A stretch of 59,223 bases of DNA from a phage: NCBI GenBank assembly GCA_025276375.1, contig GCA_025276375.1_3645.1. The stretch is one strand, 5' to 3'. Position 1 is the stretch's first letter. Each line of letters begins with the position of its first letter. Below are positions 54,676-59,223 of the stretch, piece by piece. A program made the position numbers and the translations under genes. A model generated the notes under the pieces. The model was not told the DNA's origin. It saw only the letters and a list, made by a program, of their open reading frames with translations, and did not search any database.

Positions 54676-54987
54676 TACTTGAAAATTCCTGGCATATCAA
54701 GTGTAAGGGGGATTTCTAAAATGGATTTCCTCCTTTTGATATTTCACCGGGCTGGATATTTTAAAATTCTTAGAAAATCAGAAAATGGATCGAAAACTAA
54801 AATGGATTTTTCAGAGTAGGCGCGACAAGCTGAATAACTCATCCTATCGTTTGCACCATATTCCAGGCCACCATTATAGATTTCCCACACATGCTAACCT
54901 CCCTCTACTAGAACTTCCTCCACTTGCCCTTAACCTTCTATGGTAACAATCTAACCACTATCTTGAAGTTGCGGTGCAGCTTTCCAA

Positions 54988-55116
54988 GTACTCGATCTAC
55001 TTTTCATTTCATGGCTTGGATTTTCTGAAAATTTTTCTCGATAAATTTCTCAGTACTCGATCTGTTTTTCGTTTTCTGAATCGGATTTTCTGGAAATCGT
55101 TCCGGATCTCGACCTG
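54988..55116 (+). repeat. tandem direct repeat, two ~64-bp units (AGTACTCGATCT...GGATTTTCTG...)
   Basis: unit 1 at 54988-55051, unit 2 at 55052-55116, roughly 75 percent identical by eye. Confidence 0.6.
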
Positions 55117-55277
55117 AAATTTTTGGGGACGAAATCGATTTTTCGTTTTCAGAAATGGATTTTTAAAATTTCTATATGGGAATATTTTATGGTATACTGT
55201 TTTATAGGAAATTGTTACGGAGGGTAATTAGCATGCTAATTAAATTTATTAAATGCGAGGAGTTCTCATTTAGAATT

Positions 55278-55296
55278 TTGAATGATAATCATTCTC
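55278..55296. promoter_or_regulatory. Fur-box-like palindrome, site 1 (TTGAATGATAATCATTCTC)
   Basis: 15/19 match to GATAATGATAATCATTATC; core AATGAT-A-ATCATT is a perfect inverted repeat. Confidence 0.45.
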
Positions 55297-55413
55297 GTTT
55301 GCAGAATAACGGGCAGGCCCGGTGATTGTCTCCCGGCCCCTGTTGCCCCGGCTTGTTATTATAGTATCACACAGGACAAAGAAAGCAAGGATTTTTTGCA
55401 TAAATTTTTAAAT

Positions 55414-55432
55414 GATAATGATAACCGTTCTC
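55414..55432. promoter_or_regulatory. Fur-box-like palindrome, site 2 (GATAATGATAACCGTTCTC)
   Basis: 16/19 match to the Fur-box consensus; followed by sequence related to that after site 1. Confidence 0.4.
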
Positions 55433-55869
55433 ATTTTATGCAGCGCCCATCCCCGGTGGTTGTCTCCCCCGTCACCGGTGCCTGCCGTCCTTTCGATAGG
55501 TATATTGTGCCACCTGGCGGGGCCGCTGTCAACACTTTTCAAAAAATTTTTCTAACCTGATGCGCTAACCGCTGCAACCTGGCGGGGCCAGCCTGGCAGT
55601 ACCTAACTGACCAGGTAGGAGAGAATGAAGGCTTGTAAACCTGGTGGGCCTATGCTATAGGACAGGTAACAATTGAAGAGGAGGTACAAAAATAAAAGGT
55701 AATATGATCCCCTGGAAAATGTAGCTATTAATGACGCTGAGGCTATCGCCCTGGTAGAAAAGGCCATGGCGGGAGCGTTGGAACATAAAGAAGAGTACGA
55801 AAAAATGATGGTTAACCTGGCAGGGCGGCGGCAGGTGGATTCTATCATAAAAATAATTTAAAATAATTG

Positions 55870-55897: not shown

Positions 55898-55949
55898 TAC
55901 CCTACAAGGTGAACAACACCGCACTAACTAGTAAAGAGGATAAAAAATC

Positions 55950-56150: not shown

Positions 56151-56179
56151 TTGACATACGCCCCGACACAAAATATACT
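56151..56179 (+). promoter_or_regulatory. sigma70-like promoter TTGACA-N17-TATACT
   Basis: -35 at 56151-56156, -10 at 56174-56179. Confidence 0.65.
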
Positions 56180-56616: not shown

Positions 56617-56644
56617 TTGACACGCTGCAAAATTCAAGTAAACT
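56617..56644 (+). promoter_or_regulatory. sigma70-like promoter TTGACA-N16-TAAACT followed by 5'UTR hairpin GGCGGGA/TCCCGCC
   Basis: -35 at 56617-56622, -10 at 56639-56644; leader hairpin at 56655-56673. Confidence 0.55.
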
Positions 56645-56692
56645 AGGCACAAAAGGCGGGAATGTTTCCCGCCAACACGAAGGAAAAAGATC

Positions 56693-57097
56693 ATGAATAA
56701 GAACGTACGCCGTATCATGAACGAACTGGCAAACGATGAAAAAATTATTGACATGCATTTAGTCAACATTTGCCGCCGTTGTGTAACATATAACAACCGC
56801 GCCGCAAAAGCGCGTGGGATGAACGCAAAAGGCACCTTAAAGCCCTTCCAGGTGGTGGTAAAGGCCATTAAAGATGTAACTAATACAGCAAACCAGGTAC
56901 AGGGGAACACCAACGAGAGTACCAATATTGATCCGGCTTACATCATGAAACGGATCCGGACCTGCAAGAACAAAGAGCAAGTGTATAACGTCATAGACTG
57001 GTTGGATTCTATGGGCGACGTGGTGTACAATAGGTTTTCTGCAGCTATCGAGATCCAGCTTGACAGGTTGGACGGGAAAGTACTGAAAACTTATTAA
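56693..57097 (+). CDS. hypothetical early protein (134 aa)
   Basis: AAGGAAAAAG SD. Confidence 0.45.
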   Translation: MNKNVRRIMNELANDEKIIDMHLVNICRRCVTYNNRAAKARGMNAKGTLKPFQVVVKAIKDVTNTANQVQGNTNESTNIDPAYIMKRIRTCKNKEQVYNVIDWLDSMGDVVYNRFSAAIEIQLDRLDGKVLKTY

Positions 57098-57098
57098 G

Positions 57099-57144
57099 TT
57101 TATTTTCAGATGGCCTTGACTCCAGGGCCATCAATAAAGTAAAC
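57099..57144 (+). repeat. 46-nt repeated hairpin element, copy 1 (TTTATTTTCAGATGGCCTTGACTCCAGGGCCATCAATAAAGTAAAC)
   Basis: identical to 57722-57767; 6-bp stem ATGGCC/GGCCAT with 10-nt loop; begins 2 nt after a stop codon. Confidence 0.7.
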
Positions 57145-57178
57145 TAGTCTCAACTAAGCGAAAAAAGGGGGCTTTAAG

Positions 57179-57298
57179 ATGAGCACTGCACGCCAATACA
57201 CAAAGGTAACTATTATCGTTTGCGTTGTCGGTTACATCCTGGCGCAAATGTTAATGAGTAGCGCCAACAGTTTTGCAAAATTTTTCTTAAATTTTTAA
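57179..57298 (+). CDS. small hydrophobic ORF (39 aa), not in supplied ORF track
   Basis: hand-translated MSTARQYTKVTIIVCVVGYILAQMLMSSANSFAKFFLNF; AAGGGGG SD at 7-8 nt. Confidence 0.3.
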   Translation: MSTARQYTKVTIIVCVVGYILAQMLMSSANSFAKFFLNF

Positions 57299-57326
57299 TT
57301 GACAAGCTAACCCAAATCGGTATACT
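57299..57326 (+). promoter_or_regulatory. sigma70-like promoter TTGACA-N16-TATACT
   Basis: -35 at 57299-57304, -10 at 57321-57326; TATACTTAAACAC shared with promoter 59137. Confidence 0.65.
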
Positions 57327-57377
57327 TAAACACGTAAACGGGAAAACTTCCCAGAACACACAAAAGGAGAAAACACC

Positions 57378-57719
57378 ATGACTACTATGACCGCCGCAGA
57401 AAAAGCTATGCAGATCTCCGCGCTGAAAAAACAGATCGCAGACCTTGAGAACAAGATCGATAACTTTGAAATCGACGAGGACAAGTACGACGAAAACTAT
57501 GATGAATGGTTAGACGAGATCTACGGCGAAATTATGATCGGAAACATTTCTTTTCTTCCGTCGCGTATCCTCAAGGAGTTAGATCCTATCGCTTACCGCT
57601 GCGGATTTAGCGACTACATCGACAGCCTGGATATTGAGGACGATGAAGAATACCAGGAATTGCAGACAGAGCTGGAAGAAGTGAAAGAAGAGCTTTCAGA
57701 GCTGGAAGAAAACGAGTAA
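57378..57719 (+). CDS. highly acidic coiled-coil protein (113 aa)
   Basis: AAGGAG SD; Asp/Glu-rich throughout ('DEDKYDENYDEWLDEIYGE', 'DIEDDEEYQELQTELEEVKEELSELEENE'). Confidence 0.5.
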   Translation: MTTMTAAEKAMQISALKKQIADLENKIDNFEIDEDKYDENYDEWLDEIYGEIMIGNISFLPSRILKELDPIAYRCGFSDYIDSLDIEDDEEYQELQTELEEVKEELSELEENE

Positions 57720-57721
57720 AA

Positions 57722-57767
57722 TTTATTTTCAGATGGCCTTGACTCCAGGGCCATCAATAAAGTAAAC
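57722..57767 (+). repeat. 46-nt repeated hairpin element, copy 2
   Basis: identical to 57099-57144; begins 3 nt after stop of 57378-57719. Confidence 0.7.
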
Positions 57768-57806
57768 TTTACACTGTTAACACTGAACTAATGAGGAGTT
57801 AAAACC

Positions 57807-58052
57807 ATGGCAGCACTAATCACAAAATATTATGCGCCCACCAACACTAAAAGCGCCCGGATCATGGTAAAAGGCTTCGGACGTAAAAAGGTTTACACCT
57901 GGGATTATTCCCTGGACATGGAAGACAACTACACCAACGCGATGACCGATTTTATTAACGAGCTGAATACGCGGATCTTAACAAATTATAAAATTACCGA
58001 CATTGCTTATATAGGTGAAGGCGGGATCTGTTTTGTAGGCATTGTGAAATAG
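57807..58052 (+). CDS. hypothetical early protein (81 aa)
   Basis: GAGGAG SD. Confidence 0.45.
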   Translation: MAALITKYYAPTNTKSARIMVKGFGRKKVYTWDYSLDMEDNYTNAMTDFINELNTRILTNYKITDIAYIGEGGICFVGIVK

Positions 58053-58125
58053 TTATTTTTCGGTGGTCCTGGCTGCAGGGCCATCTATAAAGATAATTTA
58101 TTAACACCATGAAAGGAGAAAGTAC

Positions 58126-58473
58126 ATGATCAGCGGGGCTAGTTTTATTATTGGCGCTATTGCTACGGCTTTAATTGTAAACAAGATCCAATCTAAAAAC
58201 GAAAAAGATAGCAACGCGCTCACAGAATACCCATTTTGGGTATTCAACGACAACGAAGACTACATAATCAAGTACAAAGATGAGAGAGGCGACCAGGTAA
58301 CACCGCGACCGATCCCAGCTTACAAGATGCAAGAAACACTATACCGCCTAAAGGCCGGAGGCGCAAAGATCGTAGACTTTTGGGGATATGATTGCAAGGA
58401 TCAGGAGGTTATAAAACGGCGTATCCGGGCGATTCAGGCAAATATTGAAATCAGTAAAGGGGGAAATTTATGA
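58126..58473 (+). CDS. hypothetical early protein with N-terminal hydrophobic helix (115 aa)
   Basis: AAAGGAG SD; 'ISGASFIIGAIATALIV'. Confidence 0.45.
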   Translation: MISGASFIIGAIATALIVNKIQSKNEKDSNALTEYPFWVFNDNEDYIIKYKDERGDQVTPRPIPAYKMQETLYRLKAGGAKIVDFWGYDCKDQEVIKRRIRAIQANIEISKGGNL

Positions 58474-58667
58474 AAATTAATTTCGAAAAAATTGTAAAGC
58501 GCCCCCACGATTCCGAAGAGCTGCCGGAACGCCGCCAGCGTAACAATAAACTGAATAAGCCGAAAAGGTTCGGGAAGATCTGGAGGAATCACTATGATCG
58601 CAAATTACCGGGCCTGCTTTTGGAACGTGAACGACAGGCAGAACGATACCGCCATAAAGACAAATAA
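58470..58667 (+). CDS. small basic protein (65 aa)
   Basis: AAAGGGGGA SD; Arg/Lys-rich. Confidence 0.4.
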   Translation: MKINFEKIVKRPHDSEELPERRQRNNKLNKPKRFGKIWRNHYDRKLPGLLLERERQAERYRHKDK

Positions 58668-58675
58668 CAACCAAC

Positions 58676-58703
58676 GCCCCGCCATTGTGCGGGGCTTTTT
58701 ATT
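58676..58703 (+). terminator. intrinsic terminator GCCCCGC-CATTGT-GCGGGGC plus UUUUUAUUUC
   Basis: 7-bp GC stem followed by T-tract, 9 nt after stop. Confidence 0.75.
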
Positions 58704-58826
58704 TCTATCCTACGAATAGCGCCCCTGGTTGGCCCTATAAGTGCCAAAAAGGCCCCCACCTATGCAATCGCCCCCCTTTAACCTGAAAACATCGCCCAGG
58801 GCCGTTTTATGGCGTTAAAAATATCA

Positions 58827-58854
58827 TTGACATCGTCAACAGGTTAGCTATACT
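58827..58854 (+). promoter_or_regulatory. sigma70-like promoter TTGACA-N16-TATACT
   Basis: -35 at 58827-58832, -10 at 58849-58854. Confidence 0.65.
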
Positions 58855-58886
58855 AACCACATCAAAGAGAGAAAGGAGTAAACGCC

Positions 58887-59147
58887 ATGCGTAAATTAAA
58901 AAATTTTGATAAAGTCGATATTGTCCTGAATAATTTTTACTACTGCAATAATAAAGCCGTTTGGTGGCGTGATAGTTCCACCGATAAAGTTAAAGCGCGC
59001 TTTCTCCAGGGGCACTGGCAAGGCCGCCCAGTGATTAAAATCTTAGGGCAATTGGTAGCGTTTAAAAATTGCCGCCGTGTTGATGACGTTGAAGATATTC
59101 TAAACATTTTACGCCACAATAATTTAAAAAATAGTGTTGACAAGTAA
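58887..59147 (+). CDS. hypothetical early protein (86 aa)
   Basis: AAAGGAG SD. Confidence 0.45.
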   Translation: MRKLKNFDKVDIVLNNFYYCNNKAVWWRDSSTDKVKARFLQGHWQGRPVIKILGQLVAFKNCRRVDDVEDILNILRHNNLKNSVDK

Positions 59148-59164
59148 ATCTCGATAAGTATACT
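59137..59164 (+). promoter_or_regulatory. sigma70-like promoter TTGACA-N16-TATACT followed by 5'UTR hairpin GGCGGGA/TCCCGCC
   Basis: -35 at 59137-59142, -10 at 59159-59164; leader hairpin at 59176-59194; AGGAG at 59209-59213 implies a gene starting at the window edge. Confidence 0.6.
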
Positions 59165-59223
59165 TAAACACACAGGCGGGAAAACTTCCCGCCACTAACA
59201 AAGAAAATAGGAGAAAATATCAT

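What the first reader, a model, noticed from the sequence alone, without database searches (positions are those of the whole stretch)
56617..59223. Reiterated early cassette: consensus promoter, conserved leader hairpin, SD and a small gene
Promoters at 56617, 57299 and 59137 are each followed by a 5'UTR hairpin built on GGCGGGA...TCCCGCC (56655-56673, 59176-59194; a weaker version at 57331-57347). Promoters 57299 and 59137 share the extended -10 context TATACTTAAACAC. A conserved leader structure across independent units suggests common post-transcriptional control (stability or regulated translation) of the host-takeover genes.
Basis: seen in the sequence. Interest (0 to 1): 0.45.

Follow-up and report, generated by a model that had tools for sequence, protein, structure and literature searches.

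The report
Early promoter cassettes with leader hairpins
This stretch of an rV5-like E. coli phage is a row of small early genes, each with its own host-type promoter; two promoters carry the same conserved hairpin at the predicted start of the mRNA, an ordinary layout already described in T4-like phages but not, in the papers I searched, in this phage group.

Summary
The window is a Vequintavirus (rV5-like) genome, 97.8% identical to phiWec193/196. Strong sigma-70 promoters lie at 56617, 57299 and 59137. The "weaker version" is a 5-bp GGGAA-AAC-TTCCC at 57340-57352, not 57331-47, and is not significantly stable on its own.

Across 12 relatives the stems are as conserved as the promoter hexamers (1/28 variable columns against 41/109 in other non-coding columns). 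The loops vary freely. The same hairpin sits behind promoters in four other ~150-kb phage contigs.

Three nearby consensus promoters (55870, 56151, 58827) lack a significant hairpin. The downstream genes have no known function.

Covariation and wobble changes show they fold as + strand RNA.

Best reading: T4 "PeSL"-like promoter/stem-loop cassettes. The leader hairpin most likely acts as a 5'-proximal mRNA-protecting stem-loop. There is no evidence for regulated translation. Transcription starts are unmapped.

The parts
56617..56644 (+). Promoter C1: -35 TTGACA (56617-22), 16-nt spacer, -10 TAAACT (56639-44), A-rich upstream
   Evidence: Invariant hexamers in 12 relatives. Listed as predicted promoter P194 in rV5 Table S4.
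56655..56673 (+). Leader hairpin C1: GGCGGGAA-TGT-TTCCCGCC, starts 10 nt after the -10, ends 20 nt before the ATG
   Evidence: -14.6 kcal/mol, z -2.8. The 7-bp GC stem is invariant in 12 relatives; the loop and closing pair vary.
56693..57097 (+). Gene of unit C1, 134 aa, phrog_13245, unknown function (SD AAGGA 56680-84)
57098..57146 (+). Type B element 1: 47-nt extended hairpin directly after the stop codon. U-rich arm, GC core GAUGGCCUUG-ACUC-CAGGGCCAUC, A-rich arm. Contains TTGACT...TAAACT.
   Evidence: D1; -24 kcal/mol, z -5.8
57179..57298 (+). 39-aa ORF (phrog_16391); its stop overlaps the next -35
57299..57326 (+). Promoter C2: TTGACA-16-TATACT
   Evidence: rV5 P192.
57340..57352 (+). 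Eroded leader hairpin C2: GGGAA-AAC-TTCCC (5 bp), 13 nt after the -10
   Evidence: z -0.29. Homologous to C3 (D6, D10). The orthologous gene in L089 carries the full GGCGGGAA-TAG-TTCCCGCC.
57378..57719 (+). Gene of unit C2, 113 aa, acidic coiled-coil, phrog_9294
57721..57769 (+). Type B element 2 (extended hairpin after the stop codon)
   Evidence: (-20 kcal/mol, z -4.7)
57807..58052 (+). 81-aa ORF, phrog_3199
58051..58099 (+). Type B element 3: the same fold is kept through three wobble changes and two A-U/U-A swaps; the -35-like TTGACT is lost (CTGGCT)
   Evidence: (-21 kcal/mol, z -3.35)
58126..58667 (+). Two overlapping ORFs (115 aa; 65 aa = T7 gp1.1-like, PF08200)
58676..58700 (+). Intrinsic terminator GCCCCGC-CATTGT-GCGGGGC + TTTTTATTT, closing the C2 operon
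   Evidence: Stem conserved in relatives; phiWec196 has the loop inverted.
58827..58854 (+). Promoter TTGACA-16-TATACT with no hairpin, followed by the 86-aa gene 58887-59147. This is the site of a 585-nt gene-module indel in relative L008.
   Evidence: rV5 P186.
59137..59164 (+). Promoter C3: TTGACA-16-TATACT, overlapping the stop of the preceding gene
   Evidence: rV5 P185.
59175..59193 (+). Leader hairpin C3: GGCGGGAA-AAC-TTCCCGCC, 10 nt after the -10. SD AGGAG at 59209-13; the ATG at 59222 runs off the window.
   Evidence: -14.6 kcal/mol, z -5.2. Invariant in 11 relatives. L008 has GGTGGGAA (a G.U wobble on the + strand) and loop CAA.

Best explanation
The interval belongs to the early region of an rV5-like phage, rich in small genes of unknown function. 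Short operons of one to four genes each start with a host sigma-70 promoter. The promoter-plus-leader segment is a small regulatory cassette that has been copied within the genome. Related cassettes occur in other large phages, in the manner of the promoter/stem-loop ('PeSL') cassettes of T4-type phages.

In two cassettes, with an eroded third, the first transcribed bases form an 8-bp GC-rich stem with a free triloop, beginning about +4. I infer that this is a 5'-proximal RNA stem-loop. It would shield these early mRNAs from 5'-end-dependent decay (RppH followed by RNase E), raising their yield. It leaves the CA-rich leader and the SD unstructured.

A second repeated element, the 47-nt hairpins directly after stop codons, is a + strand RNA structure. 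It most likely serves as an intercistronic processing or 3'-protecting site (RNase III-like, as in the T7 early region). In three of the four copies found in the closest relative it also carries a weak internal promoter.

Shown: the sequences, folds, positions, conservation, covariation and recurrence in other phages. Inferred: the transcription start, RNA-level action for the leader hairpin, and the effect on stability.
For: - The hairpin is tied to the promoter, not the RBS. It starts 10 nt after the -10 in both full copies and 9-13 nt after it in L082, L089, L106, L110 and phiKp_21. It ends 20-29 nt before the ATG.
- It is strong and non-random: -14.6 kcal/mol, z -2.8 and -5.2; zero matches expected by chance.
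- It is under purifying selection. 1 of 28 stem columns varies against 41 of 109 other non-coding columns (Fisher P = 2e-4). That equals the promoter hexamers at 2 of 24.
- Loop sequence and length are free: TGT, AAC, ACA, CAA, TAG and CGG. isim has a 1-nt deletion that changes the spacing between the arms. Av-05 paralogues have 4- and 5-nt loops on the same stem. This fits a hairpin better than a dimeric DNA operator.
- The one stem substitution in aligned relatives, C to T in L008, gives a G.U pair on the + strand.
- Structure recurs with unrelated sequences. In Av-05, GACGGGGA..TCCCCGTC (twice) and GGGGAGA..TCTCCCC lie 11-12 nt after the -10. Promoter-proximal hairpins number 3 observed against 0.4 expected in each of two regions.
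- No U tract follows either full copy, so they are not + strand terminators.
- rV5 is reported to encode a probable Srd homologue (PMC3606486). From my own knowledge, T4 Srd stimulates RNase E (Qi et al., Genetics 2015), which would make 5' protection useful.
- Established knowledge: a 5'-terminal stem-loop stabilises E. coli mRNAs such as ompA and papA (Emory 1992; Bouvet and Belasco 1992; listed in PMC3997798). The T7 gene 10 leader is another example (my own knowledge).
- Cassette behaviour: the 66-nt C2/C3 repeat, and a 585-nt gene module in L008 bounded by promoter TTGACA repeats.
- Type B elements: 98.5% of cells are paired against 39-58% when the partners are slid. Two pairs change on both sides and five change on one side to G.U.
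Against: - No transcription start is mapped. The predicted 5' tail of 2-5 unpaired nt is at the edge of what protects against RppH/RNase E.
- Only 2-3 of about 17 promoters in the cluster carry the hairpin.
- The third copy is eroded and 55870 keeps only a vestige, so the hairpin is dispensable for some genes.
- The stem is conserved in sequence, not only in structure. No fully compensatory change was seen in the leader hairpin, so RNA-level action is not demonstrated.
- One variant (EPFV3) opens the closing pair. One metagenome contig (L150) has an uncompensated G.A mismatch.
- The same 19-mer is mostly an ordinary terminator stem elsewhere. 76 of 115 IMG/VR hits have a T run beside it.
- The C1 copy has TTTTGTG on the - strand.
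Confidence: 0.45

Rival explanations
1. Attenuator or terminator, the function proposed for PeSL stem-loops. The hairpin would stop or damp transcription arriving from upstream promoters, or antisense transcription entering the promoter, so that each cassette is insulated.
For: - PeSL stem-loops reduced read-through like a strong terminator in a lacZ test (PMC2839356).
- The same 19-mer is a terminator stem in most other phage contigs.
- The annotators of phage Alma labelled both hairpins 'terminator'.
- On the - strand the C1 copy is followed by TTTTGTG.
Against: - On the + strand the stems are followed by AACACGAAGG and ACTAACAAAG, with no U tract.
- The - strand tail of C3 is TGTGTGTTTA.
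- There are no - strand genes in this cluster.
- A real terminator with a U tract exists at 58676-58700 for comparison.
Confidence: 0.15
2. Double-stranded DNA operator. The 19-bp palindrome at +4 to +22 would bind a dimeric phage or host protein that shuts off, or activates, a small regulon of early promoters.
For: - It is a perfect 8+8 palindrome placed where a bound protein would block promoter clearance.
- The stem sequence, not merely the pairing, is conserved in rV5-like phages and recurs in four other ~150-kb phage contigs behind promoters.
- There are only three copies per genome.
Against: - Half-site spacing changes in isim (1-nt deletion) and between Av-05 paralogues with 4- and 5-nt loops.
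- L008 breaks the symmetry with a change that is a G.U wobble in RNA.
- Analogous positions in Av-05 and phiKp_21 carry unrelated stems.
- The recurrence in other contigs was found by searching for the exact stem, so it is biased.
Confidence: 0.12
3. Translational or RNA-protein operator, the first reader's 'regulated translation'. A phage RNA-binding protein would bind the hairpin to tune ribosome loading.
For: The hairpin ends at -20 relative to the C1 ATG, at the edge of the 30S footprint. The stem sequence is conserved.
Against: - The distance to the ATG varies (-20, -26, -29) while the distance to the -10 is fixed.
- The SD and start codon are never in the stem.
- The loop, the usual protein contact, is hypervariable.
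Confidence: 0.08
4. Antitermination signal (lambda nut- or HK022 put-like) that lets RNA polymerase started at these promoters read through downstream terminators such as 58676-58700.
For: The hairpin is a promoter-proximal RNA structure upstream of operons that contain or precede terminators.
Against: - There is no boxA-like element.
- The triloop is variable, whereas boxB function depends on its loop.
- A single 8-bp stem is far smaller than put.
- No Rfam family matches.
Confidence: 0.05
5. No function of its own: a former terminator stem carried along when promoter segments were duplicated.
For: The C2 and 55870 copies are eroded. The stem is a common terminator sequence.
Against: Stem columns are as conserved as the -35 and -10 hexamers while adjacent columns and the loop vary. 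The constant 10-nt offset is also hard to explain.
Confidence: 0.07

Closest known systems
PeSL (promoter-early stem-loop) cassettes of T4-type phages RB49/phi1, PST and nt-1 (Arbiol et al. 2010, PMC2839356; Comeau et al. 2014, PMC4122927)
   Same: - A consensus sigma-70 early promoter with an A/T-rich upstream tract.
- An adjacent stable stem-loop with a G run followed by a C run.
- A position between a stop codon and the SD/ATG of small genes of unknown function.
- Many related copies per genome. One described subclass has the stem-loop downstream of the -10, another overlapping the -35; the window's type A and type B elements match these.
- Gene-module indels bounded by the cassettes.
   Different: - The host phage is a Vequintavirus, not a T4-type phage.
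- There are only 2-3 copies of the leader-hairpin type, against about 50 PeSLs.
- The hairpin lies after the predicted start, so it is in the cassette's own transcript.
- No terminator activity or mini-circle formation has been shown.
- The one indel I found is bounded by promoter hexamers, not by stem-loops.
5'-terminal stabilising stem-loops of E. coli mRNAs (ompA hp1, papA) and the T7 gene 10 leader stem-loop
   Same: A short GC-rich hairpin within a few nucleotides of the predicted 5' end, with no requirement on the loop sequence, followed by an unstructured leader and a strong SD.
   Different: The 5' end and the half-life are unmeasured here. The predicted unpaired tail (2-5 nt) may be too long for full protection. 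The stem sequence is conserved more than the structural role requires.
RNase III processing sites between T7 early genes (R0.3 to R1.3), for the type B element
   Same: An intercistronic hairpin of about 19 bp in two helices separated by an asymmetric internal loop, repeated between small early genes transcribed by host polymerase. A T7 gp1.1-like gene lies in the same operon.
   Different: There is no sequence similarity and cleavage is untested. Three of the four copies in the closest relative also contain a -35/-10-like pair, which T7 sites do not.
The conserved sigma-70-like early promoter of Certrevirus phages, AAAA(N3-4)TGTTGAC(N17-19)TATAAT (PMC7344957), and the 33 predicted promoters of rV5 (PMC3606486)
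   Same: The same subfamily and the same promoter type, concentrated among short hypothetical ORFs. The four promoters in this interval correspond to P185, P186, P192 and P194 of rV5 Table S4.
   Different: Those papers describe promoters only. The strings GGCGGGAA, TTCCCGCC and GATGGCC are absent from the rV5 supplementary files, which include the promoter and terminator table, and 'stem-loop' and 'PeSL' do not occur in the Certrevirus paper.

Membership tests
PeSL cassette (T4-type phages) | Consensus sigma-70 early promoter with an A/T-rich tract upstream of the -35 | tested here: met
   10-11 of 12 hexamer matches. Upstream tracts are AAAAATCA, TTTTTAA and AAAAAATAGTG.
PeSL cassette (T4-type phages) | Adjacent stable stem-loop, often a G run then a C run, at a defined place relative to the promoter | tested here: met
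   GGCGGGAA/TTCCCGCC lies 10 nt after the -10. Type B stems overlap the -35.
PeSL cassette (T4-type phages) | Located between a stop codon and the SD/ATG of small genes of unknown function, in a variable region | tested here: met
PeSL cassette (T4-type phages) | The stem-loop acts as a terminator or attenuator | not testable with these tools
   No U tract follows on the + strand. The function needs a read-through assay.
PeSL cassette (T4-type phages) | Cassettes bound gene-module insertions and deletions between close relatives | tested here: inconclusive
   I found one case. A 585-nt module in L008 is inserted at the -35 of promoter 58827, with a 23-nt remnant in three phages. That promoter has no stem-loop.
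PeSL cassette (T4-type phages) | Carried by a T4-type (Tevenvirinae-like) genome | tested here: not met
   The window is a Vequintavirus. It is therefore an analogue, not a member by descent.
5'-terminal stabilising stem-loop (ompA type) | Hairpin within about 0-4 unpaired nt of the true 5' end | not testable with these tools
   Predicted start is 6-8 nt after the -10, giving a 2-5 nt tail. No mapped starts were found.
5'-terminal stabilising stem-loop (ompA type) | Structure, not loop sequence, is what is kept | tested here: met
   Six different triloops, a loop-length change, and conserved stems.
5'-terminal stabilising stem-loop (ompA type) | Lengthens mRNA half-life in an RppH/RNase E-dependent way | not testable with these tools
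   Needs a rifampicin chase of wild-type and mutant leaders.
Intrinsic (rho-independent) terminator | GC-rich hairpin followed directly by a U run on the transcribed strand | tested here: not met
   The + strand tails are AACACGAAGG and ACTAACAAAG. Only the C1 copy has TTTTGTG, and on the - strand.
lambda nut (boxA + boxB) or HK022 put antitermination site | boxA element plus a hairpin with a conserved loop, or a two-hairpin ~70-nt RNA | tested here: not met
   No boxA, a variable triloop, and a single 8-bp stem. No Rfam match at E <= 5.
RNase III processing site (T7 early type), type B element | An intercistronic helix of about 20 bp interrupted by an internal loop | tested here: met
   7-9 bp + 10 bp helices, a 2/3-nt internal loop and a tetraloop. 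-20 to -24 kcal/mol, supported by covariation.
RNase III processing site (T7 early type), type B element | Cleaved by host RNase III in vivo | not testable with these tools
   Needs a northern blot or 5'/3'-end mapping in rnc+ and rnc- hosts.

The most novel reading that the evidence does not exclude
The 19-nt element GGCGGGAA-N3-TTCCCGCC is a specific recognition site rather than a generic hairpin. A phage-encoded or host protein would read the conserved stem, as RNA or as a DNA palindrome, just after the start of a handful of early operons in several genera of ~150-kb phages. This would define a small, conserved early regulon with its own switch (shut-off, antitermination or selective stabilisation).
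Probability: 0.12. Interest if true: 0.55.

Novelty: new member of a known kind. Interest (0 to 1): 0.28.

Why it matters
If the leader hairpin protects early mRNAs, it would show that rV5-like phages tune individual early genes after transcription. These phages rely wholly on host polymerase and reportedly encode an Srd-like factor. The hairpin would also offer a compact, portable promoter-plus-stabiliser module for expression design.

The cassettes and the indel at promoter 58827 extend the idea that promoter/stem-loop units drive gene shuffling, so far described for T4-type phages, to a second large group of therapeutic E. coli phages. The type B hairpins predict T7-style processing of early transcripts in this group.

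None of this overturns current understanding. It fills in unannotated regulatory anatomy.

Tried and rejected
- Exact-stem scan of IMG/VR: 115 hits. 76 have a T run beside the stem, so they are ordinary terminators. Only L081 (the same contig as L008), L082, L089, L106 and L110 are in a promoter-leader context. The scan cannot measure conservation because it required the exact stem.
- Metagenome scan with the C3 promoter 17-mer: mostly chance hits, including a promoter in front of a tRNA gene. It added only three rV5-like contigs, two identical and one (L150) with an uncompensated mismatch.
- Distant relatives of the C2 gene in IMG/VR (L009-L015): unrelated phages with no comparable upstream region.
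- Rfam at E <= 5: only sub-threshold chance matches.
- Pfam and PHROGs: no functions, apart from the T7 gp1.1-like peptide.
- Search of the window and phiWec196 for the '-10-spanning' cassette seen in Av-05, L089 and Klebsiella phages: absent.
- 'G-rich arm first' as a strand argument: rejected, because a perfect palindrome reads the same on both strands.
- RNase III site for the 8-bp leader hairpin: rejected as too short.
- SD sequestration: rejected, because the MFE structures leave the SD and AUG unpaired.
- Covariation analysis of the leader hairpin: not possible. There is only one stem substitution among the 12 aligned sequences.
- Literature searches for mapped transcription starts in Vequintavirinae found none.


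Full report
**Identity and context**

The 2.8-kb interval matches 121 phage records. The best are Escherichia phages phiWec193 and phiWec196 at 97.8% identity, followed by FV3, Murica, APECc02 and others at 90-95%. All are Vequintavirus (rV5-like myoviruses).

In annotated relatives the interval lies inside a roughly 20-kb run of small + strand genes, almost all 'hypothetical protein'. This run converges on a second, - strand cluster of small genes.

The nine products in and next to the interval belong to PHROG families of unknown function. One 65-aa peptide is T7 gp1.1-like (PF08200). 'Early' and 'host-takeover' are therefore inferences from gene size and promoter type, not findings.

**Checking the observation**

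The three promoters are real consensus matches:
- TTGACA-16-TAAACT at 56617
- TTGACA-16-TATACT at 57299
- TTGACA-16-TATACT at 59137

They correspond to predicted promoters P194, P192 and P185 of the rV5 genome paper, so the promoters themselves are not new.

The pattern GGCGGGA-N3-7-TCCCGCC occurs exactly twice in the window, at 56655-56673 and 59175-59193, with none expected from shuffles.

Each is an 8-bp stem with a 3-nt loop. Each folds at -14.6 kcal/mol and dominates the fold of the predicted leader (z = -2.8 and -5.2).

The 'weaker version' is GGGAA-AAC-TTCCC at 57340-57352, not 57331-57347. With five pairs it is no more stable than shuffled sequence (z = -0.29). It is nevertheless homologous to the third unit. 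In phiWec196 the orthologues of the second and third units (L002 15943 and 17782) form a 66-nt direct repeat at 74% identity, running from the -35 through the hairpin (D6 and D10).

The shared TATACTTAAACAC is present in this genome but differs in relatives. It is therefore not a conserved functional context.

Three further consensus promoters in or next to the interval do not fit the cassette. Those at 56151 and 58827 have no hairpin, and 55870 has a 4-bp vestige at the same 10-nt offset.

In the complete genome of phiWec196, GGGAA-N3-5-TTCCC occurs three times only, all at these units. Of about 17 gene-proximal + strand promoters in the cluster, two have the strong hairpin and three or four have weaker, unrelated ones. 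The hairpin is thus a feature of a few units, not of the early class.

**Is the hairpin selected?**

I aligned eleven Vequintavirus genomes (A1) and added an IMG/VR relative, L008.

| Column class | Variable columns |
|---|---|
| Outer stem of the two full hairpins | 1 of 28 |
| Spacer, discriminator, loop and leader | 41 of 109 |
| -35 and -10 hexamers | 2 of 24 |

The stem-versus-other difference gives Fisher P = 2e-4.

The changes that do occur fall in the loop or the loop-closing pair:
- Loop TGT becomes ACA in L008.
- Loop AAC becomes CAA in L008.
- EPFV3 has T to C in the closing pair.
- isim has a 1-nt deletion that makes a 4-nt loop.

The single stem change (GGCGGGAA to GGTGGGAA in L008) gives a G.U pair on the + strand. 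One metagenome contig carries an uncompensated G.A mismatch.

The stem is therefore under purifying selection and the loop is free. There is too little stem variation to prove RNA pairing by covariation.

**Other phages**

In Av-05 (Avunavirus, same subfamily) several early promoters are followed 11-12 nt after the -10 by unrelated G-then-C hairpins. These are GACGGGGA-TCGC-TCCCCGTC and GACGGGGA-GCGGT-TCCCCGTC (same stem, loops of 4 and 5 nt) and GGGGAGA-GATTGAC-TCTCCCC.

Perfect stems of at least 6 bp starting 3-18 nt after a strong -10 number three against 0.4 expected, both in the Av-05 region and in phiWec196 (P about 0.007 each).

The exact 19-mer also sits behind promoter-like sequences and in front of an SD-ATG in four uncultivated ~150-kb phage contigs (L082, L089, L106, L110). 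The loops there are TAG, TAG, CGG and TGT.

In L089 the downstream gene is the homologue of the window's second-unit gene; both share the motif DP[VI]AYRCGxSDY. The eroded copy at 57340 therefore descends from a full hairpin.

In the jumbo Klebsiella phage phiKp_21, the homologue of the gene after the third unit follows TTGACA-16-TATAAT and a 9-bp hairpin 13 nt after the -10.

This recurrence is real but partly biased, because the IMG/VR scan demanded the exact stem. 76 of its 115 hits have a T run beside the stem, so they are ordinary terminators.

**Mechanism**

The hairpin keeps a constant distance to the -10 (10 nt) and a variable distance to the ATG (it ends at -20, -26 and -29). It never includes the SD or start codon. 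It is followed by a CA-rich, unpaired leader. This points to a role tied to the start of the transcript rather than to ribosome binding.

With a start 6-8 nt after the -10, the stem begins at about +3 to +5. No U run follows on the + strand, so it is not a terminator for its own strand. Changes in loop length alter the spacing of the two arms, which a dimeric DNA-binding protein would tolerate poorly.

It is established that 5'-terminal stem-loops stabilise E. coli mRNAs by hindering 5'-end-dependent RNase E attack. Examples are ompA and papA, with references listed in PMC3997798. The T7 gene 10 leader is another case, from my own knowledge.

rV5 is reported to encode a probable Srd homologue. 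From my own knowledge, T4 Srd stimulates RNase E (Qi et al., Genetics 2015).

I therefore favour a 5'-proximal protective stem-loop (confidence 0.45). The rivals, with their tests, are listed separately:
- attenuator or terminator
- DNA operator
- translational operator
- antitermination signal
- functionless relic

**The second element**

Directly after the stop codons at 57097, 57719 and 58052 lie three copies of a 47-nt element. phiWec196 has four copies in its genome (D1).

Each folds into a 7-9-bp A/U helix, a 2/3-nt internal loop, a 10-bp GC-rich helix and a tetraloop. Energies are -20 to -24 kcal/mol, with z from -3.4 to -5.8.

On 20 distinct variants, 98.5% of cells pair against 39-58% when the partners are slid. 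Two pairs show changes on both sides (U-A/A-U swaps). Five change on one side only, always to G.U or U.G.

On the opposite strand those 50 wobble cells would be A.C mismatches. The structure is therefore selected on the + strand, as RNA.

The third copy has lost the -35-like TTGACT yet keeps the fold. The other copies keep TTGAC while the neighbouring loop bases vary. The fold is the common denominator, and a weak internal promoter is an extra in some copies.

The shape and intercistronic position resemble the RNase III sites between T7 early genes. Murica's annotators called the third copy (window 58051) and a fourth copy downstream of the window terminators, but no U run follows them.

**Cassette behaviour**

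Relative L008 carries a 585-nt block of small ORFs. It is inserted exactly after the -35 of promoter 58827 and ends at a second TTGACA. Three other phages keep a 23-nt remnant with a duplicated TTGACA.

This, together with the paralogous promoter-leader units, is what Arbiol et al. described for T4-type PeSLs. PeSLs are strong sigma-70 promoters joined to G-run/C-run stem-loops that flank small genes of unknown function and mediate modular shuffling. Their stem-loops sit within, upstream of or just downstream of the promoter.

The match is one of kind, not of descent. Terminator activity and mini-circles are untested here.

**Novelty and verdict**

The promoters were already predicted for rV5, and the promoter type is known for Certrevirus. 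Neither the leader hairpin nor the post-stop hairpin appears in those papers or in Rfam.

This is a new member of a known kind of architecture, and of modest interest.

Noticed in passing
window 54700-55860: An ORF-free stretch, called 'non-coding' in the rV5 paper. It has three 47-62-nt direct repeats spaced 65 and 74 nt apart (54978-55024, 55043-55089, 55117-55163) and further short repeat pairs (55318/55452; 55508/55573). It looks iteron- or origin-like.
   Followed up: partly
window 58826-58849; L008 4445-5031: Relative L008 has a 585-nt module of small ORFs inserted exactly after the -35 of promoter 58827 and ending at a second TTGACA. Phages nom, Mangalyan and rV5_ev158 keep a 23-nt remnant with a duplicated -35.
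   Followed up: partly
L025 (Av-05) about 6340 and 10580; L089 3673-3717 (- strand): A third cassette type has its stem-loop spanning the -10 (TTGACT-N7-ATGCCCTG-t-TAGAAT-a-CAGGGCAT). It is shared by Av-05, an uncultivated 153-kb phage and Klebsiella Mydovirus phages, where it is annotated 'promoter'. It shows compensatory changes (C-G to G-C; G-C to A-T). It is absent from the window and from the 38.7-kb early-region part of phiWec196 that was searched (L002).
   Followed up: partly
window 59194-59199, 55921-55926; L025 units upstream of 4965 and 9996: The hexamer ACTAAC directly follows the leader hairpin, or its vestige, in four cassettes from two genera. Its meaning is unknown.
   Followed up: no
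L002 17867-18490 (the gene that starts at window 59222): The 207-aa product (phrog_5162) has homologues at 44-61% identity in jumbo phages (Asteriusvirus, RaK2-like), in Av-05 and in more distant phages. This suggests a widely exchanged early gene.
   Followed up: partly
window 58470-58667: A 65-aa ORF matches Pfam Phage_1_1 (T7 gp1.1) at E = 2.6e-11. It sits in an operon with T7-like intercistronic hairpins.
   Followed up: no
window 58683-58688 versus L002 (A1 columns 2168-2173): The loop of the terminator at 58676-58695 is CATTGT in the window and its reverse complement ACAATG in phiWec196 and L008. The loop is inverted between identical stem arms.
   Followed up: no
L156, L158, L160, L172, L192, L212: The 17-mer ATAGTGTTGACAAGTAA also heads a promoter in front of a tRNA-like gene in several metagenome contigs, four of them labelled human-gut. 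These are unrelated to the finding.
   Followed up: no
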